The position numbers and the translations under genes are program-made. Shown here one piece after another: positions 1 to 64,000 of a stretch of DNA of 64,000 bases. The DNA lies in assembly GCA_965178125.1 (NCBI GenBank), contig OZ237769.1:124001-188000 (forward strand), in the 5' to 3' direction. The notes below the pieces were generated by a model, which searched no databases, was not told the origin of the DNA, and was given only the letters and a program-made list of their open reading frames with translations. The DNA is from Bilabrum cf. latius. Lineage: Eukaryota. Position 1 is the stretch's first letter. Each line of letters opens with the position of its first letter.

Positions 1-1020
1 GGTCGGGGAGCTTGCGGAGAGGAGGCAGAGGGCACTGGGGCCTGGTGACGTTGTGCTGATGGACTTTAGCATGCCTCGGATGGGGGGTGACAGGTGCACG
101 AGGTGCATCAGGATGGATCCGATGCTGGACGGTGTGCGCGTGATCGGAGTGACTGGGAACGTGCTGATCGAGGACCAGAACAAGCTGCGGAGGGCGGGGG
201 CAGAGAAGGTGCTGCCCAAGCCGGTGCGGCGCGCGATCCTTCGGGAGGCCCTGAAGCCGCCCGAGGTTGAGAAGCGCAGCACAAACGAGCGATCAAGTTT
301 ATCTGACCAGGCAGACGCCTCACCGAGTAGTCGGTTGGCGTACTCCGGACAGAAGGCTGGAGGAGGCGTGGGGTAGCTTGGACAGCCATTGTCATGACTC
401 ATGACTCATGTAAATTGTGGCATGCGCTAGGATCTGTGATCAAACAATCTCGTAGGCTGGTAGTTTATACGAGAGCGTTCAGTAACAAATATCCATAAAT
501 GTTGACCCACCAGTACAGTTGCCCGTCAATCCAAAAAATAAAAATTAGGATCAGGAATCCATGATTCAGGATGGTGCTAAGAACAAAGGCAAAAAGAAGC
601 ACAATTCAAAGTTGAACATCCGTGGACGTTGCAGATCCACGCCAGGATCAGCTTCCGACACGGTACCCAATGAGCTGCCTCTTGTCGGGCGAGCGTTCCT
701 GATCGGCATCGGAAGAGCTGGCATGGCTGGCGCTTGATTCCTCCCTTTCTCCCAACTCTGGCGGCTTCAGGGCCTCCCGAAGGATCGCGCGCCGCACCGG
801 CTTGGGCAGCACCTTCTCTGCCCCCGCCCTCCGCAGCTTGTTCTGGTCCTCGATCAGCACGTTCCCAGTCACTCCGATCACGCGCACGCCGTCCAGCATC
901 GGATCCATCCTGATGCATCTCGTGCACCTGTCACCCCCCATCCGAGGCATGCTAAAGTCCATCAGCACAACGTCACCAGGCCCCAGTGCCCTCTGCCTCC
1001 TCTCCGCTAGCTCCCCGACC
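1..1020. repeat. Inverted repeat: 1..261 is the near-identical reverse complement of 760..1020
   Basis: Direct comparison shows only scattered substitutions; similarity ends after ...EALKPPE; may extend beyond the window start. Confidence 0.95.
2..397 (+). CDS. 3' end (partial) of a response-regulator receiver domain protein, probably a hybrid histidine kinase paralogous to 648..12326
   Basis: DVVLMDFSMPRMGG...VIGVTGNV...AGAEKVLPKPV receiver motifs; open from the window edge; reading through TAG 374-376 gives a TGA stop at 395-397. Confidence 0.85.
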
Positions 1021-4000
1021 GAGTCGTCCGATGGACCAGCAGTCACACCTTGCCCGAGTCCGCCCGCCTCCGTGGGAGTGTTGGTCTCCTCGTCGATGCC
1101 CTGCAGTGCCGGCGTCAGCGGCGCACCGGGACCTTCGCTGTCCGTGCCGTCCGACCCCGCACGCCGCCAACGACGATCATGGGACTGCCCTTCTTTGCCC
1201 ACGAAAGACTCGTGGCTGTCCCCGGCAAGCAGAGCAGCAGCCGACCGCTTGCCCCCCGCATGAGAAGACGTTGTGGTAGAGCCCTTCACTTCCACCCAAC
1301 CTCCCGCTTGCCAGTACCTTCCCCGCGCATAGATCCCCACGCGCATCTCCCGCTCAAGCACACGGCGCATCTGCCGGTGCCTTGGCATACCCCCACTGCT
1401 AGCCACGGCCCGCAACAGACTGGCAGGCACGCCCAGCACCCGCAGTGCATCCAGCCCATCCGTGGCCTCCAGCACCACTGGCACACCCAGCTTGCGCACC
1501 GCCGAGGAGATGTATCTACGGTTCGACCGCTCGTCGTCCACGCACAGCACGCGCATGGGGAGGCCAGCAGGTGGCTACCCGTATCCCGACACGCCTCGAG
1601 GCACAATGCCCGCACCCCCACGCGGAGTGGCAATTTGCCCCGGTAGTATGTGGGACGGTACAGCCGCTCGCAGCACGTGCGAGGGCTCCTCCCGCATGGA
1701 CCGCCCCTCCCGTGATGCAGTCAGATCCTGATGCCCGCTGCTGCCCCTGCTGGACTGCCCTTCGTGTCCAGCAGTACTCCCTACCTGCCCGACCACGCCG
1801 TCTTGCCCCATCTGGATGGGAGTACCAGGATCAGAGCGGGGGTCACTTATTGCTGTAGCGTCAGTGGGCAGCATGTGGGTCGCGTTGAGCTGCGTCGCTC
1901 GCTGCATGAGTGCTTTCATCCAGCTGGAGCCACCAGGGCCGATCTGCTGCAGTGCGCGGCGGATGGAGGCAGTGGTCTCTGAGTCGAACCCCCCACTATA
2001 CACAGCACCACCAGCGGTAATTCTGCGAGAATCAGTGTTATTGAATGCGAAAGCAGCCGAACGAGTTGGGCTTGGCAGGAGGAGCTGCCCCGGCGCACCC
2101 CCTGCTGATAAATTGCCGGACTGCCTGCGTGAAAGGAGGAGCCCTCCACTAGTCATCGATGTCCTCGCAGTGTGCGGCGCACTTGTACCACCAGTCTTGC
2201 CAACACTCTACCATGCATGCAGGTGCCCCGAGGACGCGTTGGCACCACCTCGTGTTGACGAGGATCGTTCGAGAGCGCGATTAACGTGGCGGGCGAATAC
2301 AGAGTCTGGCATCTCGGTGGCCACACCAGTGAGAGCTGCACTTGTTGCGATTCCATTCACTGCCTTAGCAACGCTAGCAGAACGAGGTGTGACAGCTTGA
2401 GTAGGAACATCGGGGCTTGGCTCTGCCGCTGACTCCTCCAGACCGCTGGGAGGGGCAGCTGCCGACTGGCATCGCACCCACGCCCAGAATATGCTGCCGT
2501 GACCAGGCGCCGACAAGAAGCCGCACACGCCCCCGTGCAGCTTCACGATGCTCTCCGTGATGGCCAGTCCCAGCCCACTGCCCTTGCCTCCCTGCTGCAG
2601 ATTCGCGTCGATCTGCGAGAAGGGCTTGAACAGCTTGTGCCTCGCCGAGGCCTGCACACCCACGCCCCGGTCCCAGACCCAGAAACTGACCATGCGGAAC
2701 TTGCGGGCCTCGGCCGCCAGCTTGGCCATGTGTCTCACCATGCGCCTCAGTCGCCTGGTGCTGCACGACTTGCTGACCTCTGCGAGCTGCTTGCTGGTGG
2801 CCACGTTTTTCCAGCTCTGCCTGGGGCGCGTCTGTTTTCCGCTTCGAAGCTGGCCGCCAGATAGCACTGCTTGCTCGCTGGTGGCTGCTCTGCCTCGAAG
2901 TGCATCGCTCTCGGATACCACCTGCATGGGTTTCACGGAGCCCTGTGTTCCTAGCTGAGAGGGGCTGGATTTAAAACTTGCTCCGCCGTTTGTGCCGATG
3001 CCGGTGCCCGTTCCGCTGGTGTCATGTGCAAACTGCTGCGGTGGATCCAACGAGCGGTCGCCTGTTCCAGCTGAAGCAGACCTATTTGGGCCACTGTCCT
3101 TGCGCAAATTGCCATCATCGCCGACACGGTCTTCATTCCTGCCCTAAATCATGGGAACGCTCGCATACTTTGGGAGGGTTCCGGATCCGTTTACACCGCT
3201 CCCTCGGCTGCCGCGGCTGCTGGCGCTCCCTGCTCTGTTCCTAATAGACAGCAAGGCATTCTTGCCGCTGGAATCGCCTTGCGACTTCACTTCAGAGATT
3301 CTGCCACTAGCCGCGCGCTTGCCATTCCGTTTGAAGGAGCGGCGTCTCTGCTTTCGGCCGGACTCGCCGTGCCCCAGCGTCTGTAGCTGCCTGTGCACAT
3401 CCTAGACGTCTTTCCTCATCCTTCTTAGCACAGCTGCAGCCGCCCTTCCCGCTTGCTGTGCCAGCCAGCTGCCCAGCAGCACCGCCACCTGACCCTTGCT
3501 GCCTTTGGAAGCACTGAGCACCAACGGCTGCAGCTTGGACCGGAGTGCCTCCCCCAGCTTAGATTTGAAATCAGACATCTTCGACTGCGCGCTAGCGATG
3601 ACGAGCCCCCGGTCCTTGAGAATCTATGAAGGCTGCTGCTCTTTCTCTCTTAGGTTGTCTTGTAGGATTTCATCGTTGCCAGCTGCTAACAGCCCAGGCG
3701 TTTGTTTCGCAACACTCTACCTCTGCATTCCCTTGTGCTTGCTACCCAAGGCATCTTGCGACGAACTATTTCCGCCTTCCGTGCCATCAGACTAGCACGC
3801 TAGCATGACGTCGAGCGGCGTGCCGTCCTACAGCAGAGTGACCGCACCGGCCTTGCTGAATGATTCACCTGCATCTGCTGGGCTCCTTGATATTTTCCCT
3901 CTGTCACGCACAATACCCCCCTCACTCTGTGGAACGGCGTACCACCCTTGCTGCAGCAGAGGGTCCGGCTCGATCGTGCCATACAGCTCCTGCAGTACGC

Positions 4001-7000
4001 CACCGTCAGTCGCATGGCCCCCCAGCTGCCGCCGCATCTGCACGCGCAGCACCTGTCTCAGTTGCTCGAACATGGCATGCAGCCCCTGCCTCCTGCTCGA
4101 CCCCAGTATGCCCTGCTTGTGCATGGCCACGTGGTCCCACAGAGGGGGAGGCAGCTCGCTGGTGCCCACCACAACCAAGGCATCGCCCATGTCTCCCTTG
4201 GAGGCCAGGGAGCGGGGCATAGAGGATTGTAGTGGGCTGACAGCGAGAATAGGACGGCTTCTGAAATCACGCACATCTGATCTAGACCGAGATTCTGCGC
4301 CCACCAGCACTCCACTGTCAGCAAAGCTGGCGAATAGCGAATCCTCGTCGGTCCGTGTCTCCGCATGAGCTCCAGATTGCACCCCAGAGTTTGCTGCATT
4401 GGAGGAGTGCAGACCGTGAGTTGTGGCAGCACGATGGTTCTACTCCCTCGTGGATGTATCACTCGCTCCGCTCATCTCTGCTGCTCGACGCCTCGTCCCC
4501 ATGCGCATGGCATGAGCCGCCGTAGCTGGTGTCCCCTCTTCTGCCGTGGCTCGCACTCGGAGATGATGCATGCTGGGACCGGCTAGCTCGTCCTGGTTGT
4601 CCTGGTCATCCTGATCGTCCTCCATGCTCCTCGCACCGACTTCGCCTCCCCGGATGACGTGATCCAGCATGCCCGGTGTCATGTCTCCTCCGAACATGGA
4701 GTCGCCGGCTGACATGCCTCCATCGATTGACCCGCCGCCCACGCTCTCGTCCATCGAGTCGAGGCGTCGCTGAAGAGCGGCACGCTGCTTGTCGGGCGCG
4801 AAGTTAGGAGCAGGGGCAGGCGCACTGCTGACTCGGTGAGCGTAGGAGCCAGGTCCTAACCCGCGTGCCCCGTGTTTCTAAAACCGGCGAAGCTCTCGGG
4901 ATCCCGTGATCTGCTCCGCGGTGTGGCTCGCATCCGAGGCTGCTGACAGGTGCCTATCGCGGGCGAAGGACCCAGTGCTGCTGGATTGCCTGGACCCGGA
5001 GTCCACTACTTGAACGACTGTGGCCACGGGCTGGCCCATGGAATTTGTGCCTCTGTCTCTGGCACGCACTGCATGGGGCGAAGATTGTGGAGCCAATCGA
5101 CTCACTGGGCTGGGCGTGGGCGAAGAGGCAATTGGCGAGGCGGATGCCGGCCCAGCGGATGTCTATAAAGAGGCAGTTTGTGCAGCACTGGCACCGCTTC
5201 CACTAGCTCCAACATCCGCACTGGCACCGCTTCCACTAGCTCCAACATCCGCACTGGCACCGCTTCCACTAGCTCCAACATCCGCACTGGCACCGCTGGA
5301 TGGGGTGTGGCCTGCCAGCATCGAACCCGATGCCTGCATTCCAAGCATATCCTACGAACCGCCCTCAGCCGATCCGGAACCAGACTCTGCGCTGGTCAAG
5401 TCACGGATAGCCTCGTTTCTGTGCTCTCCACTGCTGCTTTCGCTGCTGCTGCTTCGATTTAATGAAGACCGAGGCTGCCCGCTGGCCGCCTCAAGAACGC
5501 GCAGCACCTGCACATTCTGTTCCTGACCCCGCTAATCATGGCGGGCCGGGTCGCTCCGTGTTCTTCCGCGAGCGGCAGCTTGATCTGCTCCACGTACCGT
5601 ATACATAGCGCGCTGCGGCGATCTGACGCTCAGAATGCCCCCATGCCCACTGCTCATCTACAACACGTCGCTGGAATCCGCTTCGGGCTCCGCTGCCAGC
5701 TACTGCTCCTCAGGCCTCAACGGCACCTCAGCGACCCTGACCCGTCTCACCTAGCCTGAATCGAGCGATCTAGAGCCCTTGGGACACCCCGCCTCGCGTC
5801 CGCGCACGAACGGCAAGGGACCGACACCGGAACTGGCTCTGTCGTTGTCCGACGGTTGCCTCGCGCTCAGTATATCGGAGGTTTCATTCGCGTGTCGATT
5901 CGGCCCCAGCAGACCGGCCACTGAGGGCGCACGGGCGGTCCGCTGCCGTGAAAGCTAGCTTTCCATTGGCACACGCCCCAGCACGAGGGGTTGGACACCG
6001 TTCCTCTGTGAAGAATAATGCTCCCCGACTGAGTGTGACGAGTGAGCTTGCATGGACATGAGTGCGACAGCAGCCTCAGCATCGCTGTGGTCGATCGAAC
6101 CGGACGTGGCGACTCGACTCAGTTTTGAGGGAACGTGTTGCTGCTTGCGGCTGGATGGAGCAGGGGCCCGACTGGGGTTCCTGTGGACAGCGGCCCGGCC
6201 GCGCGCACTGGTGGGGGTGGACTGCGACCGGTAGTGCATGCTCGTCCTGCTATCCTACCGCCTTGCAGCCCTGGCTGTGCCAAGCACGCCGCCACGCTCG
6301 CCGCCCCTTGATAATACTGAGGAGGAGTTGTACGACGGCTCCTCCAAGGCGTAAGACGGTTTTAAGCTGGATCCAGACCGGCGTGACTCGGATTCCCGCA
6401 TTGCCGAGTGCCCCCTGACGAGGCCCATGCGCCGGCTTGAGCTGCCCTACCGGATGCGGGCATTGCCACTACGAGACCGCTATTTGCGGATCGATATCCT
6501 GGACTTTTCCGAGGCAATTGCGTCTGCTTTAAGCCTTGCAGCGGTGAACTTGACTCCGTTGGAGGCGAAGTTGGCCTGGCACTGCTGCAGCCGAGGGAAG
6601 TCGCACACCTCCTGCGGCAGGTTGATCTCGTCAATCCGCTGGATGGAGACTTCCAGCACATGCAGGAGGGAGCCGACGCTGCTGGTCGCAGCAGCCAGCT
6701 GCAGCTGCAAGTTGCCTTGTTGCTGCCTTTGCTTCGAGACCTTCCTACTCCTCTTGGGCTTCTTCGCTGGCTAACTCTCCGCCTGGCGCCTGGTGCGCGT
6801 GTCGCTGGATGACGCAAGGATCGCCCCTTGCGTGGTGTCCAACCCGGAGTTGCCAGCGCCAGTGAGGGGTGGTTCCTTCTGTGTGAGATAGGTAGATGTA
6901 CCCACTGACGAGGCTGCTCTGCCGCGAGATGCACTGGAGGCCTTGGCGTCTCCCTGCGAGGCGGCGGGAGGCATGCCATGCCGGGTCTCCCGGCCTGCAG

Positions 7001-10000
7001 TCAGTGGCAGCCGAGCGCGGGCCTCCGATGAGTCTGCCGCGGCACCCTTCGGTGACCGTGTCGTCGAAGTCCCGAATGGAAGTATATCTTGATCAGTGGC
7101 CTGGGCACCTTGGTCCATTGGAGCATTAGGGCCAGCATCAGGACTGTCACCGGGACCTGGTGGACGCATATTAGTCCTGCCAGTGGTTCGCTCGCCCTTA
7201 CCGGCCGCACCAATATCATCGACACTGCTGCTGCTACGCGTCTCCCCGGCCTCCTCTCCCTCTCCCTCTCCCTCGGTGCCTTCCCCCTCCATTTCACCCT
7301 CGCTCTCCAGCATCGAGTCGTCACCCCCCTCATCGATGCCAACAAGCTCGATCCCATGCAGGCTGGACGGCTGGTTCAGAGCGCCCGCCACCGCCTGGAA
7401 CAGGAACGCAGCCAGCGACGGGTTCAGCAGCACTCCCTTCAGCGACTGAAGCTCACGGGACCGATCACTCCGCAAGTCCGCCAGCCCATCCCCCCACTCG
7501 CTGATCGACACGTCGCGCACCATCGCGAACGCTCGGAACGCCCGACTCACGGCCCGCCGCAGCTGCGTGGACAGCTCGACCGGCTTGAACTCCATCTTCA
7601 GCCGACCCGACTGCGCGGCCTCGAGCGACACCATGTCCCGCAGCACGGTCTGGATGCTGTCCGCGCTGGCCGACATGCTGGGGGCCGTGTCCTTGCGCAG
7701 CTGCCGCAGACCGGCCCGCACTTCTCTGGGCGGCAGTGGAGACAGTCCGCTGCTCTTCACCAGGATGGCAACTGCCTCCAGGCACAGGGCAGGGTCGGCG
7801 GATTGGGCAGCATGCTTGAGTTTTGAGGCGGTGTCCTTGTTGCCGGTCCTCGACCTAGAGGGAGACCGGGTCCGGCTTCTGCTTTTGGGACTTGTGCTGC
7901 TAGATTCATCGATAGGCTTGGAACTGCTTCCACTCGACGATTTCTCGACCTATGACGTGCTGGAGCTGGCGGCAGGGCCGGTTGACTCGGCCCCTTGCGA
8001 CCACATGGAATCGGCTCCGACGGCGTGCTTCGGCCTGCTGGACCGCTTTGCTCCCTTCAGCAGCATCTTCTTGAGTTTCTCCTTTCTCTTCTTTAGCTCT
8101 CCCTTGGTCTTGAACAGGTCCACCTCGAACTTGCGGTAGGCCAGCAGCTCGTCCTCCACGTCCTCCAGAGAGAGAGTCAGCGCGTTGAGCGGAGACAGCG
8201 TGTCGTGCAGCATCAGCCGCAGCATAGCACCCAGCGCCCTCCGCTTGCCCTCGGCCCCCGCCGTCGACTGCCGCACCTCCACCACCCGGGCCACGTGCCT
8301 TGCCAACAAGACAGCCATCAAAATGTAGCAGCACGGCACGATCAACCTGGCGAGTAAGAAAGACCGTGCTCTCGCCGACATGCACTGCTCGGACGATGGG
8401 ATGGCTCCCTCGCTGAACTCGAATTGCGTCCACACTACACGACTCGCCACTGCCTGCGCTAGCAAGGGTGCGGGCGGCATGGCTACCACCGGCATTCCAA
8501 GTGCTTCCGCAGATACGACTGTGTCGTTGTGTGCAGGGTCAGAATCGTAGTCGATGTGACCAGATTCGAGTTCCATGCAGTTGAAGTGATACCGCAACTG
8601 AGACAGACCATTCGATGCTCCTGGCAAAATTTGGGCCTGCAGTGGAGAGTGGATGTGCTCTGGCCCATTCCCATGCTCTTCTTCATCTTCTTCATCATGC
8701 CCGTGATCTTGCACACTGCTTGCGTTGAAGTGCTTGTGGCACTCGGCACCCAGCAGCATCGCCACCGCGCCGTGTCCCAGGTCCTGCATGCTCGTGTCCA
8801 GGTCCAGCAGCTCCAGCGACCTCTCGAACCGAGTCCTGCTCCTGGGGAACACAGAGGGGTTGCGGCGGACCACTGCGCCTGCGGCTGCGGCTGCAAGTGT
8901 GATGCCCAGCTGGTGGGTGCGGCACTCCAGCTGGTAGGTTGGTATGCCGAGCCAGAACAGCTCTGTAACAACAATGAGGAGTAACAGCACCTTGAGCCAG
9001 ATCAGCAGCCTCTGCTGGGACAGGAGCAGGCTGGCATAGGTGAAGGCCCGAGAGTCCTCCCCGCCCTCCCCCTCGTCCTCGTCCCCTCCCTGGCCCCCGA
9101 TCCTGTATCCATAGCCAGTGTCCTGGCCCTTCCGTCTACCTCCTCGCTTGACGTGCGCGTCAGCCTAGTCTTCAATAGCGTCAGTAGTGGCGAATACAGC
9201 GCTGCGGTGCGCAATTGATGCCGCATCGGTGCCCGTTGCGAGCAGCTCGGCACCCCGTTCAGAAGCCCCAGTGCCCGCGCGGCTCCTAAACGACCGGCCA
9301 GGACTTGGCGCCCACCCGTGGTCTCCCGGTGCAACTTTGGCGCCTGCAACTGACTCGTGGGCCTGAATCAGGGTCTGAGGGTCTGGCACGGTGGGGCCAC
9401 CACCCATACTCCTCCCCTGCTGCTGGCTCTGGTACATAGTGCTCACGCCCCGGAGCTTGCTCTTGGACCCAGATCCGTTGCTTGCGCTCGCACTCGGCTT
9501 CGTCGGCCCGCTCCTGAGGGTCGCAGAGGGCGAGCTGAGGGCATTGTCGAGGGCATCGTCATCCTCCGCACCCGGATCGTTGGGGACCGCTGCCGCTAGA
9601 GCATGCGCGGCCTTGACCTGCTTCTTGGTGAGTGCATCGGACTGCAGCGCAACACGGCTCCAGAGCTCGACGTTCTACAGGCGACTGCGCCGGGCCGCGG
9701 CGGCCTGTGACCCAGAATTCGCCAGTGTGACGATGGTTCGAATCGAAGTGCGCCGCCCCCTTGCACGTCCTACAGCCCGGTCCCAGCAGCCCCAGCACCA
9801 GCGTGACTCACGCTGCGGTCGCCTCTGTCTTGAGTTCCTGCTTCGACTCCCACGGGTATACCGAGACGGTCGCTGTCTTGCACTGTCACTACCGCAATCC
9901 ATGCACGCGGTGCAGCAGCAAATACCGCACAGTCGAAAGGGTGCACAGATGGACGCGTCCGCATCACTTGCCCTGCGCCGAGACCCCGTGATGCCGACTC

Positions 10001-12326: not shown

Positions 12327-12926
12327 TGAATGGAACGAGAGGTTCGAACGAATCCATGGATGGATAGGAATTTTGAGGTCACCATGACATGGGTCTACAC
12401 AGAGTCGTAGGTATTATAAAGGTAAACGATTCCAGTAAACTTACAAATTTATCGCCTTCCGCTTTGCCGGGGGTATGCATTTCTGCTGGGGTTGAGAAGG
12501 AGTGAGCCGCGGCGATCGTAGGAATTGCTGCCTAGTAGCCGACCAGTGCTTGATTGGCTCTATGGCCTCGTCTGGTTTAGCCGGTGCGCGCCATTCGGGC
12601 CATAGGCAATGTGTGTGACAAAGGTGGCAAACGCAGTCGGCGTTGTGGCTTTAATGTGACAGCCCAGGCCCGAATTCATCGGCTATATCGGTTTGTACAT
12701 TATGTCTTCATCTTCATTCAACTAAAAATGCAGTGCATTAAGGCGAGACCTGGCCTAGTCTTTCTAGACTAGACTCACCATGAATCTAAACTATACAGTG
12801 CTAACTACCGTGCAAACATAGGAATCTGCTGATTGCAACTTCTGACAAGACACTGCACTGCACGCACCCGCTGCCACCTCATGTAGATGCGATTGACCCA
12901 CGCACTGCTGAGGAAGAAGCTTCATG

Positions 12927-12974
12927 CCCCCCCCCCCCCCCCCCACTTCCCCTTCTTTCTCCCCCCCCCCCCCC
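12927..12974. repeat. Two poly-C runs (poly-G on the sialidase sense strand) just after the sialidase stop
   Basis: C18 at 12927-12944 and C14 at 12961-12974. Confidence 0.9.
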
Positions 12975-12976
12975 TT

Positions 12977-17313: not shown

Positions 17314-17481
17314 GTTGCTAGGCCTCAAATTTGCAGGTCTATGCTGTTCTTGGCGCCGCGCACTACTAGGTTCCGGCACGGCCGCAGAACACAAAACGAG
17401 GGGCGTAGGTTTTCGAGAGTAAGAGGGATGGACAGGAGAGTTGATATTCTTCAATTGGTCTTTCCAACGGCAGTGCATCGC

Positions 17482-20400: not shown

Positions 20401-20661
20401 GCCAACTTTGCCAACGTTTAGCGGTTTGAGCCCCAGCCTTGCCCTGAGATCATTTGTATCGTCGACAGACATAGAGACCTCATTGTTCGAAGTACTGATC
20501 TTCGGGGCGATCATTTCGCCTCCTGGCTTCGGAGCTTTACCAGGCGCTGACATTCGCAGTGGCTTTAGGCCTAGCCGGGCTCGCAACTTGTTCGTCTCCT
20601 CCACCGATAGCTCTATCTCGCCCGCGCCATTGGTCTTCGTGGGAACATCCACGGACTGCAT
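17482..20661 (-). CDS. SART1: U4/U6.U5 tri-snRNP-associated protein SART1/Snu66, ~1,060 aa
   Basis: Two HIND-type motifs (LSVEETNKLRARLGLKPL, MSVDDTNDLRARLGLKPL), MVLTLQERPMLD, LENV, VLQHYDD, and C-terminal IKLEYTDEFGRP*T*KEAYRDQSYQMQGRQPG where * = TAG; TGA at 17482. Confidence 0.9.
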
Positions 20662-20905
20662 GTATGGTAGTTGGTAAACGTCGTAGAGATGATCTAGAGG
20701 TGAGGTGAATTTAGGGTGCCTGCCATCATCACACCATGCGATCGAGCGCAGAAGTCGCAAACAAGAAAATAACGCATGCCAGATAAGACAGAAGTACAAC
20801 TACGACACCTCCTTGCGCTCCCGCCGCGGCGAAGAGATAGCAACTGAGACGCCGCAAGCGCCTGTCCACAAGCACCACCTGCTCCCCTCCCGCTGCTCTG
20901 CCCCC

Positions 20906-48100: not shown

Positions 48101-48160
48101 GCTGCAGTACCAAGTCGTGCCCCGGGTCCGTCCATTGGAGACGATAGTTACGTGAAGTAA
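42134..48160 (+). CDS. Large protein with N-terminal ankyrin-like repeats, Lys-rich patches, a coiled coil and a Gly/Met/Pro/Gln-rich tail, ~2,000 aa
   Basis: Nine co-frame ORF fragments joined across TAG; ankyrin-like AIKNGHDQVLAW, GDSALWAAAAAGQ..LVSLGIDP, GRTPF; in-frame ATG 42134; ends at TAA 48158-48160 followed by AT-richer DNA. Confidence 0.75.
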
Positions 48161-52107: not shown

Positions 52108-52399
52108 CAACAGCGCTGTGTGACCAGCCAGAGTGGTGTGCTTGGCAGCGACGGTGGCGCTACGACAGCTGACCCAAGTGCTTTTCCCACTGCCAATGTG
52201 CAACTGTGCTGAATGTGTACAATGCCAGCCTGTCTGTTTGGTGACAAACTTTGGTCCGATCTCCGAGTCGTGGATTCGGAGCTGACTGTGGACGTTTGAT
52301 TGCCGACTCTCTCCAGTATTGGGCACTTTTTGAGTTGGTATCTCTACATTCCGATTGAGAGAAGTTTGTGTCATGTTGCACAGACTTACATCTAGTTGC

Positions 52400-55270: not shown

Positions 55271-55555
55271 GATGAGTGGTTAGTTGACTAGCGGCAGCGA
55301 GAGTGTCTGCACCTTTATGTGTGCTCCATTTATCGTATCGGTTGATTCTCTTGAGTTGGCGGTTGCAATATCTGCCGTGTTGGGTGCGGGGCCTTTGTTT
55401 TTTGACATTTTTCCAGTGGCCTGGGTAGGAAGATGAAGATTGGAAGGTCCACAGCCGAGAAGCTGCATTCATCCCTGCAAACTTGAGCTGCTGACTCTGC
55501 AGCGAGTATTGTTAATTATCAATACTTGCTCTACTAGTCCATTCCTTTCTGAGCC

Positions 55556-58477
55556 ATGTCCAGGTTGCCGATTGATACGCTTTTTGTAGAATAGCATGCA
55601 GCATCACTGCCTCGCAGCTTCATTGCAGCGATCGCATTGAAACTTGATCTTAAAGCAGAGTTGGCTATTATTGAGGCAGCTCGAAATAGCCGACTGTGTC
55701 AGCAAGTTGATCTGGCGGCATCTGAGATATGCAATTTGCCTTGGACTGTCAGACTGGATGACAAGGCAGTCTCACATATTCGTGATATCATCCACGGCTT
55801 GGACACGCATGGCTGTTTCTTTTTGAATTTTGCTTTGCTTGTGCGGTTGGCCGCTGGGTATCAAGAAGGCTGGTCGAAGCCTGCTTGCGACGCGCTTGCC
55901 GTCGATACCATACTACAGCAAAACGGTCGAGTAGTGCACAGCATGATACATGATTAGTACAAGAGGGCATTGACACGGTTTCGAGGCAAACGCATACCTC
56001 AAAGATGTGCTGACACGGCCTCCTGGAAGGCGTGCCGGGATCCCTCCGGCCCCGGTGGTGCTCGCTCGATGATCGCGATGGCCTGCGCTGTGGGCGCCCC
56101 GTACATTCTGCAGTCCATTTTCATACACATGGACAACTTAGGCATCCCCAAGCACGTCATTCGGGCAAAGTGCATGGAGAAGGTTCCGTGTAGGCGACCG
56201 GTGCGTTCAGCCACGCTGGCCCACCGACGTCGGGCAGCCGCTGCGACACTTGTTTTGGAGAATGCACAGGGAGCGGGAGGAGTACCATTGCTAACTGGGG
56301 CAGCGGCAGCAGTTGGTACTATTCCCACAGCCGGATGGGCCACTGGCGCAGGATCAACGATGCCACTTCATAGGGCAGTGGCGAATCAGTCATCTAGGGT
56401 GGACGTACCATTGCCTGGGCTACCGCACATGCAGCCTGTGCTGTGGACGCCTGAAGTGCTTGCCGTCCGGAGCGGGTGCTTCGACACGCTGTGGGCTCTA
56501 ATGGAGCTAGTAGGGCGTACGAAGGATACAGGGTACACGTGGAACGGCCTGCACGAAGCCGCGCACTGGGACGACGTCGATGCCTTCGAGGTGCTGCTCA
56601 ACCAGCGCAAGGATCCGCACGAGTCTATCCTCGGGGAAGACGGGCCGATCGCGCGGGCATGCAGGCAGGGCAGCGTACAGGTGCTGAAGCGATCTCTCCA
56701 ATACCTGGACGATTAGCCTAGGCTAACAATGAGGGAGAGTGCCGCCATGGCATCTTCAAGATAGGCCCCATACCTTCCTCCACACTAGATGAATCGCACG
56801 GAGTTGGGAAGGACGCTTCTGGATTCCGTCTGGAAAGCGACTCTGTGGGCTAGACCCCAGTGTGTCGCGCTCTTGGTGCAGTGGGATGAAGGCATCGCGT
56901 ATGATGCACTGAAGAGTGAATACAAGGATTACACCGAAGCGCGATGGGAACAGTTCATGGCACCTCTGCCGACCGACAGCCACTGGGGCCGAGCTGGGTG
57001 CTCGGAGGAGGCAAGGAGAGCATGCGTGCGGACCGTGCAGGTACTGGGGAGATTCAGACTGCAGGAGCTGTCGACGTGTATTGTGCACTTGCTGGCCGTC
57101 TAGCGCATGCACGGCGCTCTCCGGGCCCTGGCGTCGAACGTCGGAACAGGGCCTACTGTGCTGGGGGTCGCAAGCGGGTGGCAGGCGCGGCCAAAGTTTT
57201 TGCCAGATCATGTGCGATTGTAGTTGTCTTGCCTTCCAGCCTACTTTTGGCATGGAGATGAAATACATGCGGTGAAGAGTTTTGCGATGGCAATCGTGGA
57301 GGTTGCCATTGCTAGCAAGAGCCTGCCTGAGGAGCTACGAATGTCCTACCCCTCTGCGGACTTGAAACATTGCATGCGGGCGCTGCTCGACCTTGGGAAT
57401 GCAGGGGGCTCGCACTATCGAAACCCTGCTGGCACGGTGGACATGCAATCACACTTTCCCTGCAGAGACGAGAGCGGCAGGCCCGTGGCGATGAAGTTTA
57501 ATGGTGCGAGGAGGCAGGACGAGCTAGCCTGGTTATGCCGCTATTTGAGGGAGAGGACGAACCAACTGCTCTCTCGTCCAAATGGGCGCACCATGGCAAC
57601 AGGTGCATGTGCTGAGCCCCTGCAGCGCGAGTGGTGGAGAGAGCTGGTGGAGAAGTTGCTCAATGAAACACACGGCTTCACACCTTGCTCCTTGCATGTA
57701 TTGCACGAAGCACTCCGGTGTGGCTACGGCAATGCTGTGATTGACCATGGTTCTGAGTCAAGAAGTCCCCCTGCTGTGCCGCTGCCAGCTAAGCGATTGT
57801 CTCCCACGCAGCGGGCGGCAGTTAGCACCCTTCTCCTGTGTGGATGGCCACTGGCGCAGGCAAGTGATAGGGATCTTGATCCAAAGGATTAGCCTAAGCA
57901 TGACGAGCCTGAGTTCTGGCACAACTACACCCCTAATGTGCGCAAGCAGCAGGCACTTGCCGACGCATGCAAACGCGAGGCATGGCGGGAGGCAGGGGCG
58001 CTACTGGCTGAGAACAAGACCATCGCAGCGATGCGAGAAGCGGCAGGACCCACGACCACGTACAGACAGCAAGCGATGATCCAGTGGAGGGAAGCGGTGC
58101 GGGCCCGCAGGTACCTCGCAGAAGCGTGGGGCATGGCGATCGGCTGGAGGCCGCTTGGCCTGGCACGGTGCATGCGGCCCAGGACCCGACAGGCGTGCCT
58201 TGCAGTGCGGGGCTGCTTGCCGCCTTCCGAGTCAGGAGGGGGGCAGCCGAAGGCATCAAGAGTCAAGCGGCGGGGTGGCTGTACGCTGCTGATGGGGGCG
58301 GCTTTCACTGGCTCGGCCGAGTGCGTGAAGGTGCTGCTCGAGGCAGGCGCGGATGTGGGCGAGCTGGACGAGGAAGGCAAGGACGCTGCGTGGTGGGCGA
58401 GTCAGGCGGCGAAGGGGGTAGGGAGGGCGGCGGTGATGCGATTGCTGGGGGCAGCATCGCCTGATCCCGGCGTTTGA
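55556..58477 (+). CDS. Ankyrin-repeat protein, tandem paralog 2 (~973 aa)
   Basis: Same architecture as 52400..55270; ATG 55556 in frame; TGA 58475-58477. Confidence 0.85.
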
Positions 58478-58791: not shown

Positions 58792-58838
58792 ATGGATCAC
58801 TCCTCCCGCCCAAACCGCATGGATCACTCCTCCCGCCC
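58792..58838. repeat. 20-bp direct repeat at 27-bp spacing, overlapping the kinase stop codon
   Basis: atggatcactcctcccgccc at 58792 and 58819. Confidence 0.85.
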
Positions 58839-61800
58839 GAACTGCTCCCGCACCGACAGCAGCGCCGCGCACTCCTCCCGCAGCCTGTCCACCGCCCGCT
58901 CCCTCAGCAGCCACTCCCTACGGGCCACCCCATCCCACACGCATGCCTCCCCGCGAGAGGCCTCCGGACCGCCCCCCGACACCACTCGAGGCACCGGCGC
59001 GCGCCCCACCACTCCGAACGAAACAGACCCCCGGCTGTCACGCGCACATGCCACCAGCTGACGCATCACGAACGACTCCGCTGAGTCCCCCGAGTCGGCA
59101 GCGCCCACCGACCGAACGACCGGGTCGTCCGCCCCCGCCCCCGATGCAGCCCCTCCAGCCCCCCCACCTTTCCCACCACTCCCGCCACTGCTACTGGCAC
59201 GGCCGCTGCCCCCGCTTGCCGCACACGCCCTCAGCCCCGCCTCCCCCCCTGGCCCGAACAGCATGGCCCTCAGCGCCATGATCGCACGGCCAGGCTCCAG
59301 CCGAAGCTCAGGGATGGGCTGCTGCAGGCCGCGGAGCACCGCCTCCAGCCACGGACCCGCTTGTTCCCTGGCGCTCGGTAGCTTGGCGGGGTCGTACAGC
59401 CCCCCGCAGTTTGGAAGCACCGCCGTCGGGTCCAACAGCTGCCACACCACCCGCCCCGCCGCCCACGCGTCCGCCGACTCGTACGCCTGAGCCAGCCTCT
59501 CCAGCTCCTCCCCCTCCGAATCAGTAGTCAGCTCGCCCCGCTGCATGAGAGTCAGCTCAGGCGCCCTCGTCACACCCGCCCCGTGCTCCCCCAAGTCCTC
59601 CGTCGAGAAGGCCACGTGCACCGACCCGGCCCCCGCACCCTCGAACACAGGGGCACCGGAAGCAGCAGCAGCAGCAGCAGTGGATGCAGTCCCAACGCTC
59701 GCCCGGCCTGAGCGCCCCCGCAGCACTGCCAGCAGATCTCCGCTGCCTCTCCCACTGCCGCTGCCACTGCCCGGGCCTGCTGCTTCACTTTCTCCGCCCC
59801 CGCTGCTGCTGCCAGCCGCCCCCGTGCCCTGCGACACATCCTCTGCCATCCGGCGCCTGTTGGCCTGGAACTCGCGGTCCAGCTCAGACGCCACCCCGCG
59901 CTTGAACAGCAGCCGCCCGCTCCCGAAGTCACCCAGCACGATCCGCCCGTCCTCTGCAAGGAACAAGTTATCATCCTTCACGTCCCGATGCACCGCCCCC
60001 CTTCGCAGCATGTGCTGCGTGGCCTCCAGCGCGCCCAGCAGCCACAGCGCCGCCTCCCGCCGACCCGTGCACGCCTTCGTCTTCACGGCGGAATGGAGAC
60101 TCGTGGGGTACCGCGGCATGACGATCCACGTGGTGCGCCGGGCCACCACGCCCAGGTCCATCAAGCCCCGACCCACCCAGGGAACTGTCAGAGCCGCAGA
60201 CCCGAAGAACGAGTGCAGCACCGGCACGATGTGCGGACATGCCGTCCCCAGCACCCGAGGCACCCTCCACTCTTCCCTGTGCTTCTGGATGACGTCCTTG
60301 GACTAGTACCGCGATGCGTCGGCGAACGGCAGCATCCCCTTCACCGCCAGCTCCCTTCCCTCCGTGGTCCGCACCGCAAACACGAATCCGTTCACCCCCT
60401 GTCCATCCCCCTCTTTGCCTCGTGGCAGGTTCAGCGGGGGGATGCGTCCCCGTTCTTCCTCGGGCGCGCCCTCTGCACCCGTGGCGATCCTCTTCACCGC
60501 ACCCACCTCCACCACCCGCGCCCCGCCGGCAGCCAGCACCTCCAGCTCCTCCGGACCCGGCACGCTCCCCAGATCGATCGTGGTGACACCGCCTGCAGCC
60601 AGGTACTGCAGGCGACCATCCGCATGCCGCATCCAGTCACTGTCTGCTAGCAGCGACGCAGGCAGCATCATTGACGACAATGACGACGACTCGGACGGCC
60701 CCTGACCCAGTCTCCGCAGTCGAGTCGCCGCGATTGCACTGACCCCCGCGGCCCCTCCCCATGCCTCAAGCAGGGCCCGAGCAGGACCAAACCACCCAGC
60801 CATCGCAGAGACCGACAGCATCGCGCCGGGGTCGGAAGGGGCAGGGGCTCCCATGGCCAGCAGCGCACGCACCGTGCCCAGCGAGGCAGCGCCCAGCATG
60901 TCCTCGCCCAGCGCCCTCACCAGCGGAGACATCGTGGCATCCAGGCCAGCGATCGCACCCCGCACCCCCTCGTCCTCCACCAGCGCCGCCAGCGCATCGC
61001 CCGCCTCCTTCACGCGGAAGTCCAGCGCCAGCCGACCCAGCCACCGAGGCGCCCCCGCCCGCACCAGCACCCGCCGAGCATCCCCCGAGGCCTTCCTGGC
61101 GATGGCCCCCACCCACGCGCACGAGGCAGCCGCCGCCTCGGTTCGATCTGATCCGTCGCCCCCGACCACACTGGCGCGCTGCATTGCCCGCACGGCCATC
61201 GTGACCAGCTCCCTGTCCTCTGGATCGTCCGACTCACCGAGCCCCAGTGCCACCGCGGCACGGCATGCTCCTGGGCCCGGAGCTGCAGCCCTGAGGTGCC
61301 ACCGGACCGAGTCGATGACACCCTCCGCCGGGATTGCGATGTCCATGGCTTCCTGGTCCGTGTCAGTGGCAGCGATGCAGTCTGCCAGGGCCTCGCACGC
61401 AGCATCCGCGGCCGCGAAATCGTGTGGGGATGCGTCAGCCAGAACCTCGAGACTCGCACGGACCGAGCCTCTGCAGACGGTGCGGATCGCATCGAGAGCA
61501 TCTTCTGCAGTGCTTGCGGTTGCAGCCTCCCTCCGTCGCTGCATGATATGCTGTAATGTGGGTTTGGTCTATGAAGACGGCACAGGCTCGCAGCGTCCCT
61601 CGAGTGCTTGCCGCACCTTCTCCCGCCATACCTCAACCACCTTGGTGCTTTCGAGATTCAGCTCCCGAAGCGCCCCGTTGGTCTTGAGCGCCTCCGCCAG
61701 GCCGCACGCCCCCTCGTCCCCCACCTGGGTGCTACCGAGATGCAGCACCCGAAGCGCCCCGTTGGTCTTGAGCGCCTCCGCCAGGCCGCACGCCCCCTCG

Positions 61801-63308
61801 TCCCCTACCTTGGTGCCATTGAGAAACAGTACCCGAAGCGTCCCGTTGGTCTTGAACGCCTCCGCCAGGCCGCACGCCACATCGTCCCCTACCTTGGTGC
61901 CATTGAGAAACAGTACCCGAAGCGCCCCGTTGGTCTTGAGCGCCTCCGCCAGGCCGCACGCCCCCTCGTCCCCCACCTTGGAGTCACCGAGATGCATCTC
62001 CCGAAGCGCCCCGTTGGTCTTGAGCGCCTCCGCCAGGCCGCACGCCCCCTCGTCCCCTACCTTGGTGCCATTGAGAAACAGTACCCGAAGCGCCCCGTTG
62101 GTCTTGAGCGCCTCCGCCAGGTCGCACGCCCCCTCGTCCCCCACCTGGGTGCTACCGAGATGCATCTCCCGAAGCGCCCCGTTGGTCTTGAGCGCCTCCG
62201 CCAGGCCGCACGCCCCATTGTCCCCCACCTGGGTGCCATTGAGATCCAGCACCCGAAGCGTCCCGTTGGTCTTGAGTGCCTCCGCCAGGCCGCACGCGCC
62301 TTCGTCCCCCACCTGGGTGCGACCGAGATCCAGCTCCCGAAGCGCCCCGTTGGTCTTGAGCGCCTCCGCCAGGCCGCACGCCCCATTGTCCCCCACATTA
62401 GTGCCATTGAGAAACAGTACCCGAAGCGTCCCGTTGGTCTTGAGCGCCTCCGCCAGGTCGCACGCCCCCTCGTCCCCCACCTTGGAGTCACCGAAATGCA
62501 TCTCCCGAAGCGCCCCGTTGGTCTTGAGCGCCTCCGCCAGGCCGCACGCCCCCTCGTCCCCCACCTGGGTGCCATTGAGATCCAGCACCCGAAGCGTCCC
62601 GTTGGTCTTGAGCGCCTCCGCCAGGCCGCACGCCCCCTCGTCCCCCACAATGGTACCACTGAGATCCAGCTCCCGAAGCGCCCCGTTGGTCTTGAGCGCC
62701 TCCGCCAGGCCGCACGCCCCATTGTCCCCCACATTAGTGCCATTGAGAAACAGTACCCGAAGCGTCCCGTTGGTCTTGAGCGCCTCCGCCAGGTCGCACG
62801 CCACATCGTCCCCCACATTGGTGTAATACAGATGCAGCTGCCGAAGCGCCCCGTTGGTCTTGAGCGCCTCCGCCAGGCCGCACGCACCCTCGTCCCCCAC
62901 CTGGGTGCCAAAGAGAGTCAGCACCCGAAGCGCCCCGTTGGTCTTGAGCGCCTCCGCCAGACCGCACGCCCCCTCGTCACCCACCGTGGTGTAATTGAGA
63001 CTCAGCTTCCGAAGCGCCCTGTTGGTCTTGAGCGCCTCCGCCAAAGCTAATACGCCCCGATCACTAACGGATCCAGAGCAAGACAGTGTAGCGCAAGTCG
63101 TGTTGTCGGCAAGCAACTCTGCCACAGCTATGGCTTTATCATCGGATACAATGTTCACTTCATTTGTCCCGCTCAGAAGATGGTGGCAAGCCTGCAGAAG
63201 TGCAGAGGGCGGTGAACGGCATAGGATGGAGCCACTCAATGGACGCAGCGGATGCGTTCGGTTGGTACACCCATGACTCACATTTTGGTCTCGCCCCCTT
63301 CCCGACAT
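58824..63308 (-). CDS. LRR (RNI/NLRC3-type 28-aa repeats), helical region and PINK1-like Ser/Thr kinase fusion, ~1,490 aa
   Basis: ORFs 61569..63308, 60303..61544 and 58824..60263 are co-frame and joined across TAG (61569, 60303); kinase motifs GQGVNGFV, LAVK, PHIVPVLHSF, WIVMPRYPTSL, HRDVKDDNL, DFG, APE, ADAWAAG; TGA at 58824. Confidence 0.85.
61655..63045. repeat. 84-bp coding tandem repeat array (16 full units plus 1 partial) encoding LRRs
   Basis: Constant cgaagcgccccgttggtcttgagcgcctccgccaggccgcacgcccc.tcgtccccca plus a variable ~30-bp segment; translation EALKTNGALRxLxLxxTxVGDEGACGLA. Confidence 0.97.
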
Positions 63309-64000
63309 GTAGCTAATGATACAGAAACGGGTAGTCGAATGGTGCTGCAGAATCTGATCGTAGGCATATGCAGTTTAAAGTAGCGAACGAACGAACGAAC
63401 GAATCTTGATTTTCGAGCAATCATCACACTCAGAATGATCCTAACACCTAACAAATATCAGATGATGAAACCATTCCTTTGGCCATGCCCACCCAGAAGG
63501 CAAAAACAAAAGAAAATCCTTTGTAGCCCGTGTGCGCGATCCGGGGATCCGGAGTCCGGATGGAAGCTTCGAGTGGCCGAACACAGCTGCACTGCACTCC
63601 GGTTCCGCTAGTCGCCGCCACCTCATTCATCCCATTGCAGTCCCACACCCCTCTGCAATCCCACTTCCCCCTATCACTCTCTTCCCCATCTGCGTCTCCT
63701 TACTCGATCTGGCACAGAGGTTCCAGGTGTCTACAGCGCTAGTGGATTTGGGCGGGGGCCACGTGCTGGCGCAGTTCCGCTGCGCCCGCCGCCTAGTTCC
63801 GCACATGCTCCGCTCGTGGGGTAACCCCGCGGAGCCGCTCGGAACAAAGGTGCACGTAACCCCGCTGGGACCCCCCGGGGTCGCTTGCGCCCCCGGATAG
63901 CCCCATCGCCGCAGGCCCGACCTAGGGCGGCATCTGTAGCACTAGTAATACTCTGTACCTGAGCAGGTGACACCTTCTGGATCCTCCTCCATCCGCCGCA

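What the first reader, a model, noticed from the sequence alone, without database searches (positions are those of the whole stretch)
1..64000. Nuclear genetic code variant: UAG read as a sense codon (most likely Gln) while UAA and UGA remain stops
Seen: dozens of ORF fragments fall into long same-frame runs (11.7 kb, 17.5 kb, 6 kb and others) broken by TAG. In the gaps I read by hand there was no in-frame TGA and only one TAA (51442). TAGs interrupt conserved domains (J-domain end, kinase N-lobe, SART1 C-terminus). The 13 gene ends are 11 TGA and 2 TAA (48158, and 48886 directly after the canonical tail-collar ending YLIKT). Known: UAA and UAG nearly always change meaning together in eukaryotes; UAG-only reassignment (NCBI table 15-like) is reported for few lineages, e.g. 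the fornicate Iotanema and some ciliates. Inference: this GC-rich, intron-poor genome does not look like a typical ciliate and may be an independent origin, implying a tRNA-Gln(CUA) and an eRF1 that ignores UAG.
Basis: partly seen in the sequence, partly recalled or inferred. Interest (0 to 1): 0.96.

Follow-up and report, generated by a model that had tools for sequence, protein, structure and literature searches.

The report
UAG read as glutamine in a eukaryote
This GC-rich piece of a eukaryote's nuclear genome only makes sense if the stop codon TAG is read as an amino acid, almost certainly glutamine, while TGA and TAA still end genes, which adds a new organism to the short list that split the meanings of TAG and TAA.

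Summary
With TAG read through, the window resolves into 12 full genes plus one partial gene, with frames up to 5,946 codons. Over 19,533 codons there are 151 in-frame TAG, the same rate as out of frame. There are no in-frame TGA or TAA, where about 401 are expected. All 13 gene ends are TGA (11) or TAA (2).

TAG is most likely glutamine. At 24 sites where a close relative or a tandem paralogue has a residue opposite our TAG, the counts are Q 9, E 4, R 3, K 2, Y 2, and L, S, P, D 1 each. Gln beats the next residue by 14 log-likelihood units. Relatives at 56-84% identity have stops exactly where we have TAG (4 sites) or CAG, so they share the code.

This is the Iotanema-type code (UAG=Gln; UAA and UGA stop). 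It differs in sitting in a 61% GC, intron-poor genome that ends genes mainly with UGA. I could not test the tRNA, the eRF1, whether TAG stays in mRNA, or the organism's placement. One in-frame TAA, in gene H, remains unexplained.

The parts
2..397 (+). 3' end of a second hybrid histidine-kinase gene, a paralogue of the C-terminus of gene A. It converges on A, has 1 in-frame TAG and ends in TGA.
648..12413 (-). Gene A: giant hybrid histidine kinase (HATPase_c plus Response_reg). The frame is 3921 codons with 25 in-frame TAG and ends in TGA.
12977..14179 (-). Gene B: sialidase-like BNR protein. It has 0 TAG and ends in TGA.
14320..17481 (-). Gene C: protein with no Pfam family. It has 7 in-frame TAG and ends in TGA.
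17482..20946 (-). Gene D: SART-1 / Snu66 tri-snRNP protein with HIND motifs. It has 8 in-frame TAG, one of which (codon 49) probably lies upstream of the start. It ends in TGA.
17680..17688 (-). Two TAG codons (17686-17688 and 17680-17682) in the conserved SART1 C-terminal motif GRP-TAG-T-TAG-KEAYR. The closest relative has Q at both.
20906..22297 (-). Gene E: histidinol-phosphate aminotransferase. It has 0 TAG and ends in TGA.
22453..22965 (+). J-domain protein gene with 3 in-frame TAG. One (22636-22638) is at the end of the J domain. It ends in TGA.
24081..41921 (-). Gene F: giant membrane protein with REJ and GPS domains. The frame is 5946 codons with 61 in-frame TAG and ends in TGA. A GDPGDPPS-TAG repeat carries the TAG in each copy.
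42020..48160 (+). Gene G: low-complexity protein with no Pfam family. The frame is 2046 codons with 19 in-frame TAG and ends in TAA (48158-48160).
48886..51441 (-). Gene H: protein with a phage tail collar domain. It has 10 in-frame TAG and ends in TAA (48886-48888). It probably continues upstream to the ATG at 51676-51678.
51442..51444 (-). The only in-frame TAA, lying inside coding-like sequence of gene H. Candidate in-frame GT..AG segments of 21 nt (51436-51456) or 30 nt (51427-51456) span it.
52334..55270 (+). Gene I: ankyrin-repeat protein with 8 in-frame TAG, ending in TGA. It is a tandem paralogue of gene J.
55553..58477 (+). Gene J: ankyrin-repeat protein with 8 in-frame TAG, ending in TGA. 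It is 65% identical to gene I.
58824..63374 (-). Gene K: LRR_6 repeats plus a PINK1-like protein kinase domain. It has 2 in-frame TAG (61569-61571; 60303-60305 in the kinase N-lobe) and ends in TGA.

Best explanation
The window is nuclear DNA of a GC-rich, intron-poor eukaryote whose cytoplasmic ribosomes read UAG as a normal sense codon for glutamine. UGA (the main terminator) and UAA still end translation.

Shown:
- TAG is as common in frame as out of frame.
- TAA and TGA are excluded from frames up to 17.8 kb and close every gene.
- Residues opposite TAG in relatives and paralogues are best explained by Gln.
- Related organisms carry stops at the same positions.

Inferred from what is known of other UAG-only codes (PMC5304391, sections 7 and 9 read):
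- a tRNA-Gln with anticodon CUA, which pairs with UAG but not UAA;
- a glutaminyl-tRNA synthetase that accepts that tRNA;
- an eRF1 whose N-domain no longer recognises UAG well.
For: (1) Frame structure. TAG-sense frames reach 5946, 3921 and 2046 aa, against 874 aa under the standard code. The TAA-only and TGA-only controls reach 874 and 1174 aa.

(2) Codon counts over 19,533 codons. There are 151 TAG, 0 TAA and 0 TGA in frame, against about 149 TAG and about 401 TAA+TGA expected from the off-frames.

(3) The frames are real genes. Pfam finds HATPase_c + Response_reg, BNR_2, SART-1 + HIND, Aminotran_1_2, DnaJ, REJ + GPS, Collar, Ank, and LRR_6 + Pkinase.

(4) Gene ends. All 13 ends are TGA (11) or TAA (2).

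(5) Residue identity.
- The closest SART1 relative, P0003 (70% identity), has Q at both TAG sites.
- The relative of gene F on one 9,936-nt contig (68-84% identity) has Q at 4 of 11 TAG sites; the rest are E2, K2, L1, S1, P1.
- The tandem paralogue has Q at 3 of 10 sites, encoded CAA, CAA and CAG, so two of the three are not single-step neighbours of TAG.
- Pooled over 24 sites: Q9, E4, R3, K2, Y2, L1, S1, P1, D1.
- Log-likelihoods from an empirical table of 3,050 aligned pairs: Q -64.4, H -78.4, R -82.6, E -83.0, S -123, L -131.
- Site F4146 is Q even in a 42%-identical homologue.

(6) Shared code in relatives. Of the 6 fragment ends on the F relative's contig, 3 lie opposite our TAG and the other three opposite CAG, GAG and CAT. 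A SART1 relative, P0017, ends exactly before TAG 1087.

(7) The TAGs are real DNA. All 46 in-frame TAG codons in 12400-32399 lie in listed contigs of run X4 without any difference. Runs of two other studies cover 33 and 16 of them (X5 and X6, one study) and 4 (X7).

(8) TAA is not a second Gln codon. With CAA:CAG at 203:578, about 53 in-frame TAA would be expected beside 151 TAG if UAR were Gln. The 12 frames hold none; they were defined as TAA-free, so the argument rests on their length. The one TAA is the one bounding gene H.
Against: - Only 9 of 24 sites (38%) show Q, against 72% conservation of canonical Gln codons in the same alignments. TAG therefore sits at less constrained sites, or its decoding is not purely Gln.
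- CAG is a transition neighbour of TAG, so part of the Q excess could be mutational.
- SART1 column 1087 is L in 100 and M in 15 of 121 homologues, with Q in only 4.
- One in-frame TAA lies inside coding-like sequence of gene H.
- There is no tRNA gene in the window, no eRF1, no genome, no peptide data, and no run on record as RNA.
- With only 13 gene ends, occasional use of TAG as a terminator cannot be excluded.
Confidence: 0.85

Rival explanations
1. UAG is a sense codon but encodes another residue. The candidates are Glu, Lys, Arg or His; Leu as in the rhizarian exLh and the TARA phyllopharyngeans; or Ser as in Scotinosphaera.
For: - E (4), R (3) and K (2) are the next most common residues opposite TAG.
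- SART1 column 1087 is L or M in 115 of 121 homologues.
- One L and one S lie opposite TAG in the close relative.
Against: - Log-likelihoods are 14 to 21 units worse than Gln for H, R, E and K, 59 worse for S and 67 worse for L.
- SART1 column 1089 has no L in 121 homologues, and Q is its commonest residue (33).
- The 70%-identical relative has Q at both SART1 sites.
- The J-domain site aligns to E, A or R in the solved J domains shown, a polar position.
Confidence: 0.06
2. UAG has two meanings: Gln inside genes and stop at some gene ends, depending on context. Alternatively it is read by a near-cognate tRNA-Gln(CUG) without a dedicated suppressor tRNA.
For: - Only 13 gene ends could be examined.
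- TAG usage is uneven: 0 in genes B and E (443 and 466 codons) and 2 in gene K (1516 codons), against a mean of 7.7 per 1000.
- Conservation at TAG sites is lower than at CAG and CAA sites.
Against: - No gene end needs a TAG. SART1 continues in conserved sequence after its two C-terminal TAGs.
- The base after in-frame TAG (G66, C36, A26, T23) matches that after all codons, so no context signal is seen.
- In-frame TAG is as frequent as off-frame TAG, which suggests no cost.
Confidence: 0.07
3. The TAGs are removed or changed before translation, by U-to-C editing to CAG or by tiny in-frame introns. Under this reading the code itself is standard.
For: - Editing TAG to CAG would also give Gln.
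- One in-frame TAA in gene H can be spanned by GT..AG segments of 21 or 30 nt.
- No run is on record as RNA, so mRNA was not seen.
Against: - It would need 151 precise events in 19.5k codons affecting TAG alone. TAA and TGA are simply absent.
- The TAGs have no shared flanking pattern.
- Relatives alternate between a stop and Q, E or K at homologous sites, as a normal codon would.
- No listed contig of any of the four runs differs at a TAG or joins across one. The only joints are in low-complexity repeats, with 20-28 letters on the short side.
Confidence: 0.02

Closest known systems
Iotanema spirale (Fornicata) nuclear code: UAG=Gln, UAA and UGA stop (PMC5304391; abstract and sections 7 and 9 read)
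   Same: UAG alone is reassigned, to Gln. No in-frame UAA or UGA occurs. UAG is not seen as a terminator. A tRNA-Gln(CUA) is predicted.
   Different: Iotanema ends genes mainly with UAA (104 of 119 ends), whereas this window uses TGA in 11 of 13. The genome here is 61% GC with long intron-free genes. The organism here is unplaced. The eRF1 change seen in Iotanema (T32G) could not be examined here.
Ciliates with UAG=Gln only: Hartmannula sinica, Trochilia petrani and Protocruzia tuzeti (PMC11687900; abstract and Discussion read)
   Same: The codon table is the same.
   Different: In those ciliates UAA ends 86.9-98.3% of genes and UGA is the rarest stop. Their GC content is 27-54%. This window is GC-rich, uses UGA, and has giant genes on a contig of at least 64 kb.
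UAG=Leu codes (the rhizarian exLh; three TARA phyllopharyngean MAGs) and UAG=Ser (Scotinosphaera) (PMC5304391; PMC11687900 Discussion)
   Same: UAG is decoupled from UAA.
   Different: The residue differs. Leu and Ser fit the data here far worse than Gln.
UAR=Gln codes (NCBI table 6: many ciliates, Hexamitinae, some ulvophytes, Streblomastix, Amoeboaphelidium protococcarum) (PMC5304391 Background; PMC11687900 Discussion)
   Same: UAG is read as Gln.
   Different: In those codes TAA is a sense codon too. Here the 12 gene frames hold no TAA in 19,533 codons, against about 53 expected from the CAA:CAG ratio. TAA also closes 2 genes.

Membership tests
UAG=Gln, UAA/UGA=stop nuclear code (Iotanema type; 'table 15'-like) | In-frame UAG occurs inside bona fide coding sequences at the frequency of a sense codon. 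| tested here: met
   151 TAG in 19,533 codons. 10 of 12 full genes carry at least one. The in-frame rate equals the off-frame rate. TAGs lie inside the DnaJ, SART-1, REJ and kinase regions.
UAG=Gln, UAA/UGA=stop nuclear code (Iotanema type; 'table 15'-like) | UAG positions correspond to Gln in homologues. | tested here: met
   Q lies opposite TAG at 9 of 24 sites and is the commonest residue. lnL is -64.4 for Q against -78.4 for the next residue. Only 24 sites from 3 gene families could be used, and the homologues are close relatives or one paralogue.
UAG=Gln, UAA/UGA=stop nuclear code (Iotanema type; 'table 15'-like) | UAA and UGA are not used as sense codons and do terminate genes. | tested here: met
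   There are 0 in-frame TAA or TGA against about 401 expected. The 13 gene ends are 11 TGA and 2 TAA. One unexplained in-frame TAA lies at 51442-51444.
UAG=Gln, UAA/UGA=stop nuclear code (Iotanema type; 'table 15'-like) | UAG never serves as a terminator. | tested here: inconclusive
   None of the 13 gene ends needs a TAG. That is too few genes, and the ends were defined by reading TAG through.
UAG=Gln, UAA/UGA=stop nuclear code (Iotanema type; 'table 15'-like) | A tRNA with anticodon CUA and Gln identity is present. | not testable with these tools
   The window has no tRNA gene and no Rfam hit. No genome is held.
UAG=Gln, UAA/UGA=stop nuclear code (Iotanema type; 'table 15'-like) | eRF1 N-domain changes weaken UAG recognition. 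| not testable with these tools
   eRF1 is not in the window, and no genome is held.
UAG=Gln, UAA/UGA=stop nuclear code (Iotanema type; 'table 15'-like) | UAG is retained in mature mRNA and translated, as shown by peptides. | not testable with these tools
   No run is on record as RNA. Contigs cannot show transcripts. There are no proteomic data.
UAR=Gln code (NCBI table 6) | UAA is used as a Gln codon alongside UAG. | tested here: not met
   The 12 frames hold 0 in-frame TAA against about 53 expected from CAA:CAG = 203:578 and 151 TAG. Two genes end in TAA.
UAG=Leu code (exLh; TARA phyllopharyngeans) | UAG positions correspond to Leu. | tested here: not met
   L lies opposite TAG at 1 of 24 sites, and lnL is 67 units worse than for Gln. 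SART1 column 1089 has 0 L in 121 homologues. Column 1087 on its own would favour L (100 of 121).
Context-dependent codes with no dedicated stop (Condylostoma or Blastocrithidia type) | All three stop codons, or UAA and UGA, also occur as sense codons in frame. | tested here: not met
   There are 0 in-frame TGA and 0 in-frame TAA in the 12 frames.

The most novel reading that the evidence does not exclude
This is an unreported, non-ciliate eukaryotic clade that reassigned UAG to Gln independently. At least three related organisms in public data carry stops at homologous in-frame sites. It did so in a GC-rich, compact, intron-poor genome where UGA, the leakiest stop, is the main terminator. In that setting AT-driven 'codon capture' of UAG cannot apply. 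The same lineage may in addition tolerate a rare in-frame UAA, or have 21-30-nt introns (gene H).
Probability: 0.4. Interest if true: 0.75.

Novelty: new member of a known kind. Interest (0 to 1): 0.62.

Why it matters
UAA and UAG almost always change meaning together. The papers read here list only a few nuclear lineages that split them: Iotanema, the rhizarian exLh, Scotinosphaera, some phyllopharyngean ciliates and Protocruzia (PMC11687900, PMC5304391).

A further case in a 61% GC genome that terminates mostly with UGA would be useful in two ways:
- It would test models of code change. A GC-rich genome does not purge UAG, which favours the ambiguous-intermediate or release-factor-first routes over codon capture.
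- It would offer a natural eRF1 and tRNA-Gln(CUA) pair that discriminates UAG from UAA.

There is also a practical point. Standard-code gene calling shatters this organism's genes. The database proteins of its relatives are fragments of 38-770 aa that end at these stops.

Tried and rejected
- Whole genome: none is held. Genome-wide Codetta, tRNA and eRF1 checks were therefore impossible.
Sources and names of the relatives' proteins are therefore unknown.
- RNA: no RNA holder is listed. Three runs are only guessed to be RNA, and one of them is marked 'probably DNA'. Retention of TAG in mRNA is therefore untested.
- The metagenome scan with the HisC protein returned 80 loci with a best identity of 55%. 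None was close enough for codon-level comparison.
- The protein search with ankyrin gene I (shorter proteins) gave 2 irrelevant ankyrin hits.
- The Atlas look-ups named the HisC and sialidase genes but gave no usable taxon. HisC lay nearest fungal-type clusters and the sialidase nearest animal-type clusters.
- PDB searches with the gene H C-terminus and the gene C N-terminus gave nothing below E=0.2. The 'canonical YLIKT ending' stays unverified.
- SART1 columns 509, 566, 724, 775 and 836 lie in low-complexity linkers and are uninformative.
- Literature: five searches found no report of a GC-rich non-ciliate UAG=Gln lineage. Subscription journals are not covered. Supplements are closed, and the code tables and eRF1 alignments of PMC5304391 and PMC11687900 may list more taxa.
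- Pseudogenes, assembly error and pyrrolysine were rejected. The first two would not spare TAA and TGA. The TAGs recur in runs of three studies. 151 TAGs spread across unrelated proteins is not a Pyl pattern.
Full report
**What the window is**

The window is 64,000 bases with no N. GC content is 0.57-0.65 throughout. Under the standard code it looks like a mosaic of ORF fragments, the longest being 874 aa.

If TAG alone is read through, it resolves into a few very long frames of 5946, 3921, 2046, 1516, 1154 and 1053 aa. Reading TAA alone through changes nothing (longest frame 874 aa). Reading TGA alone through gives at most 1174 aa. The effect is therefore specific to TAG.

Pfam shows that these frames are real, mostly eukaryotic genes:
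- a hybrid histidine kinase;
- a sialidase-like BNR protein;
- SART-1 with HIND motifs, a spliceosomal tri-snRNP protein;
- histidinol-phosphate aminotransferase;
- a J-domain protein;
- a REJ + GPS giant membrane protein;
- a phage tail collar domain protein;
- two tandem ankyrin paralogues;
- an LRR + protein kinase.

The window holds no tRNA gene and no Rfam family.

**How strong the signal is**

Over the 12 full genes (19,533 codons) there are 151 in-frame TAG, or 7.7 per 1000. The two off-frames of the same genes hold 147 and 151, so TAG is not avoided in frame at all. In the same frames TAA and TGA are absent, while the off-frames hold 54 and 66 TAA and 322 and 361 TGA. About 401 in-frame TAA+TGA would be expected.

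The frames were defined as free of TAA and TGA, so the evidence lies in their length. The chance of a 5,946-codon frame without TAA or TGA at the off-frame rate is about 1e-53.

All 13 gene ends, including the partial gene at the left edge, are TGA (11) or TAA (2). The base following in-frame TAG (G66, C36, A26, T23) has the same distribution as the base following any codon, so no context signal is visible.

**The TAGs are real DNA**

I laid contigs of four public runs on 12400-32399. No difference from the window was listed, apart from a single one-base deletion at 12961, between genes. The only joints were in low-complexity repeats, with 20-28 letters on the short side.

The pieces listed for run X4 cover all 46 in-frame TAG codons of that stretch. 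X4 may be the source of the window. Runs of two other studies cover 33 and 16 of them (X5 and X6, one study) and 4 (X7) (using only the pieces listed in table 8).

None of these runs is on record as RNA, so this says nothing about transcripts.

**Which amino acid**

Three kinds of comparison were available.

(a) Tandem paralogues I and J are 65% identical over 943 aligned residues.
- 12 alignment columns hold a TAG. They account for 14 of the 16 TAG codons; the other 2 fall in gaps.
- Two columns are TAG opposite TAG.
- The other ten show Q three times, R three times, Y twice, and E and D once each.
- The three Q are encoded CAA, CAA and CAG, so two of them differ from TAG at two bases.

(b) SART1 was searched by an exhaustive HMMER scan, which gave 468 hits, of which the best 150 were returned.
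- The closest relative, P0003 (70% identity over 98 residues), reads GRPQTQKEAYR where the window has GRP-TAG-T-TAG-KEAYR.
- Another relative, P0017, ends exactly at GRP, so it has a stop where we have the first TAG.
- Among the 121 homologues covering these columns, the second site is Q33, P27, R26, K18, T9, A4, E3, S1, with no Leu.
- The first site is L100, M15, Q4, I1, V1. On its own the first site would suggest Leu. Together with the second site and the closest relative it does not.

(c) The giant gene F has relatives in the protein database.
- Six collinear fragments from one 9,936-nt contig (68-84% identity) cover F residues 2383-4322.
- There is also a 60-aa fragment from another contig and a 42%-identical homologue.
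- Opposite our TAGs the close relative has Q four times, E and K twice each, and L, S and P once each.
- Site 4146 is Q in all three relatives that cover it, including the 42% one.

Pooling gives 24 distinct sites: Q9, E4, R3, K2, Y2, L1, S1, P1, D1. I built a substitution table from the same alignments (3,050 residue pairs, 73% identity) with a small BLOSUM62 pseudocount. The log-likelihoods are:

| Residue | lnL |
|---|---|
| Q | -64.4 |
| H | -78.4 |
| R | -82.6 |
| E | -83.0 |
| K | -85.2 |
| S | -123 |
| L | -131 |

The J-domain TAG sits at a polar, variable position that is E, A or R in the solved J domains shown.

Caveats:
- Q is found at only 38% of TAG sites, against 72% conservation for canonical Gln codons.
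- CAG is a transition neighbour of TAG.
- The sample is small and comes from three gene families.

I put Gln at about 0.9.

**Relatives share the code**

The database proteins of the relatives were called with a standard code, so they are fragments. On the F relative's contig, three of the six fragment ends lie exactly opposite our TAG codons (F2620, F3192, F3336). The other three lie opposite CAG, GAG and CAT.

With P0017 this gives four homologous positions where both organisms carry an in-frame stop. At least two or three related organisms therefore show the same interruption pattern. I could not see their DNA, so I infer rather than observe that their stops are TAG.

**UAA**

TAA is not a second Gln codon. 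CAA:CAG is 203:578, so about 53 in-frame TAA would be expected beside 151 TAG. The 12 frames hold none, and TAA closes genes G and H.

There is one anomaly, in gene H.
- The frame is bounded upstream by TAA at 51442-51444.
- The 116 codons between that TAA and the first Met score as coding: 0.147 per codon, against an in-frame median of 0.15 and an off-frame 95th percentile of -0.018.
- The 79 codons further upstream, back to an ATG at 51676-51678, also score above the off-frame range (0.065). They begin with a signal-anchor-like peptide.
- Either this TAA is read through, or it lies in a very short in-frame GT..AG segment (21 nt, 51436-51456, or 30 nt, 51427-51456), or it is a nonsense allele. 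This is unresolved.

**Mechanism**

By analogy with Iotanema spirale and the UAG-only ciliates, UAG should be read by a tRNA-Gln(CUA). Such a tRNA cannot pair with UAA. The eRF1 should have lost affinity for UAG. In Iotanema the eRF1 change is T32G in the GTS motif (PMC5304391, section 9).

None of this could be examined. There is no genome, no tRNA gene in the window and no eRF1. That TAG is as frequent in frame as out of frame suggests an old, settled reassignment. Its absence from the two conserved enzyme genes B and E, and its scarcity in K, is compatible with a slightly disfavoured codon.

**Comparison with what is known**

The codon table is that of Iotanema spirale (PMC5304391) and of Hartmannula sinica, Trochilia petrani and Protocruzia tuzeti (PMC11687900, Discussion). 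The differences are:
- UGA rather than UAA is the main terminator: 11 of 13 ends here. In Iotanema UAA closes 104 of 119 ends. In the ciliates UAA closes 86.9-98.3% of genes.
- The genome is 61% GC.
- Twelve genes show no intron, and one runs 17.8 kb without interruption.
- Spacers are short. For example, 140 nt separate the stop of gene C (14320-14322) from the first ATG of gene B (14177-14179).

The following codes were tested and not met: UAG=Leu (exLh, TARA phyllopharyngeans), UAG=Ser (Scotinosphaera) and UAR=Gln (table 6).

Five literature searches found no report of such a GC-rich lineage. The library lacks most subscription journals and supplements were closed.

**The organism could not be placed**

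- The Atlas look-ups only named the HisC and sialidase genes.
- The metagenome scan gave no relative above 55% identity.

**Verdict**

The result is a new member of a known but rare kind of code. It is of real but not extreme interest until the lineage is placed and the tRNA and eRF1 are seen.

Noticed in passing
window 51427-51678 (- strand): Gene H has an in-frame TAA (51442-51444) between a coding-like N-terminal segment that starts at ATG 51676-51678 and the rest of the gene. In-frame GT..AG segments of 21 or 30 nt span it. The possibilities are a tiny intron, UAA read-through or a nonsense allele.
   Followed up: partly
window 2-397 (+) and 648-1000 (-): The left edge holds the 3' end of a second histidine-kinase gene. 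The last ~85 residues of its receiver domain are nearly identical to those of gene A. The two genes converge tail to tail and diverge only in their last ~40 codons.
   Followed up: no
window 40800-40960 (- strand), gene F residues ~320-375: The short repeat GDPGDPPS-TAG is repeated in tandem, with the TAG codon in every copy: 7 TAG within about 50 codons. One flanking copy has CAG/CAA-type Q (GDPQGSPS) where another has TAG (GDP-TAG-GSPS).
   Followed up: partly
window 12977-14308, 20906-22306 and 58824-63374: TAG use is uneven. There are none in the sialidase-like gene (443 codons) or the HisC gene (466 codons), and 2 in the 1516-codon LRR-kinase gene, against a mean of 7.7 per 1000 codons.
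   Followed up: no
window 14180: Contigs of runs X5 and X6 (same study; their RNA status is only a guess) both end at 14180, one base upstream of the ATG of gene B. The DNA-like run X4 continues across that point. This is a weak hint of a transcript 5' end or a trans-splice site.
   Followed up: no
window 52334-58477 (+): Two tandem ankyrin-repeat genes are 65% identical. They share a long non-ankyrin N-terminal and middle region with no Pfam family. A search of shorter database proteins found no relatives.
   Followed up: partly
window 19070-19736 and 25073-25739: Summed contig depth is very high in all four runs (up to 2730 and 6341 in X4). These stretches are low-complexity, charged or Gly-rich coding repeats, and many unrelated contigs map to them.
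   Followed up: no
window 12400-22310 (- strand): Spacers between same-strand genes are very short: about 140 nt between the stop of gene C and the first ATG of gene B. No intron is apparent in any of the 12 genes, although a spliceosomal protein (SART1) is encoded.
   Followed up: no
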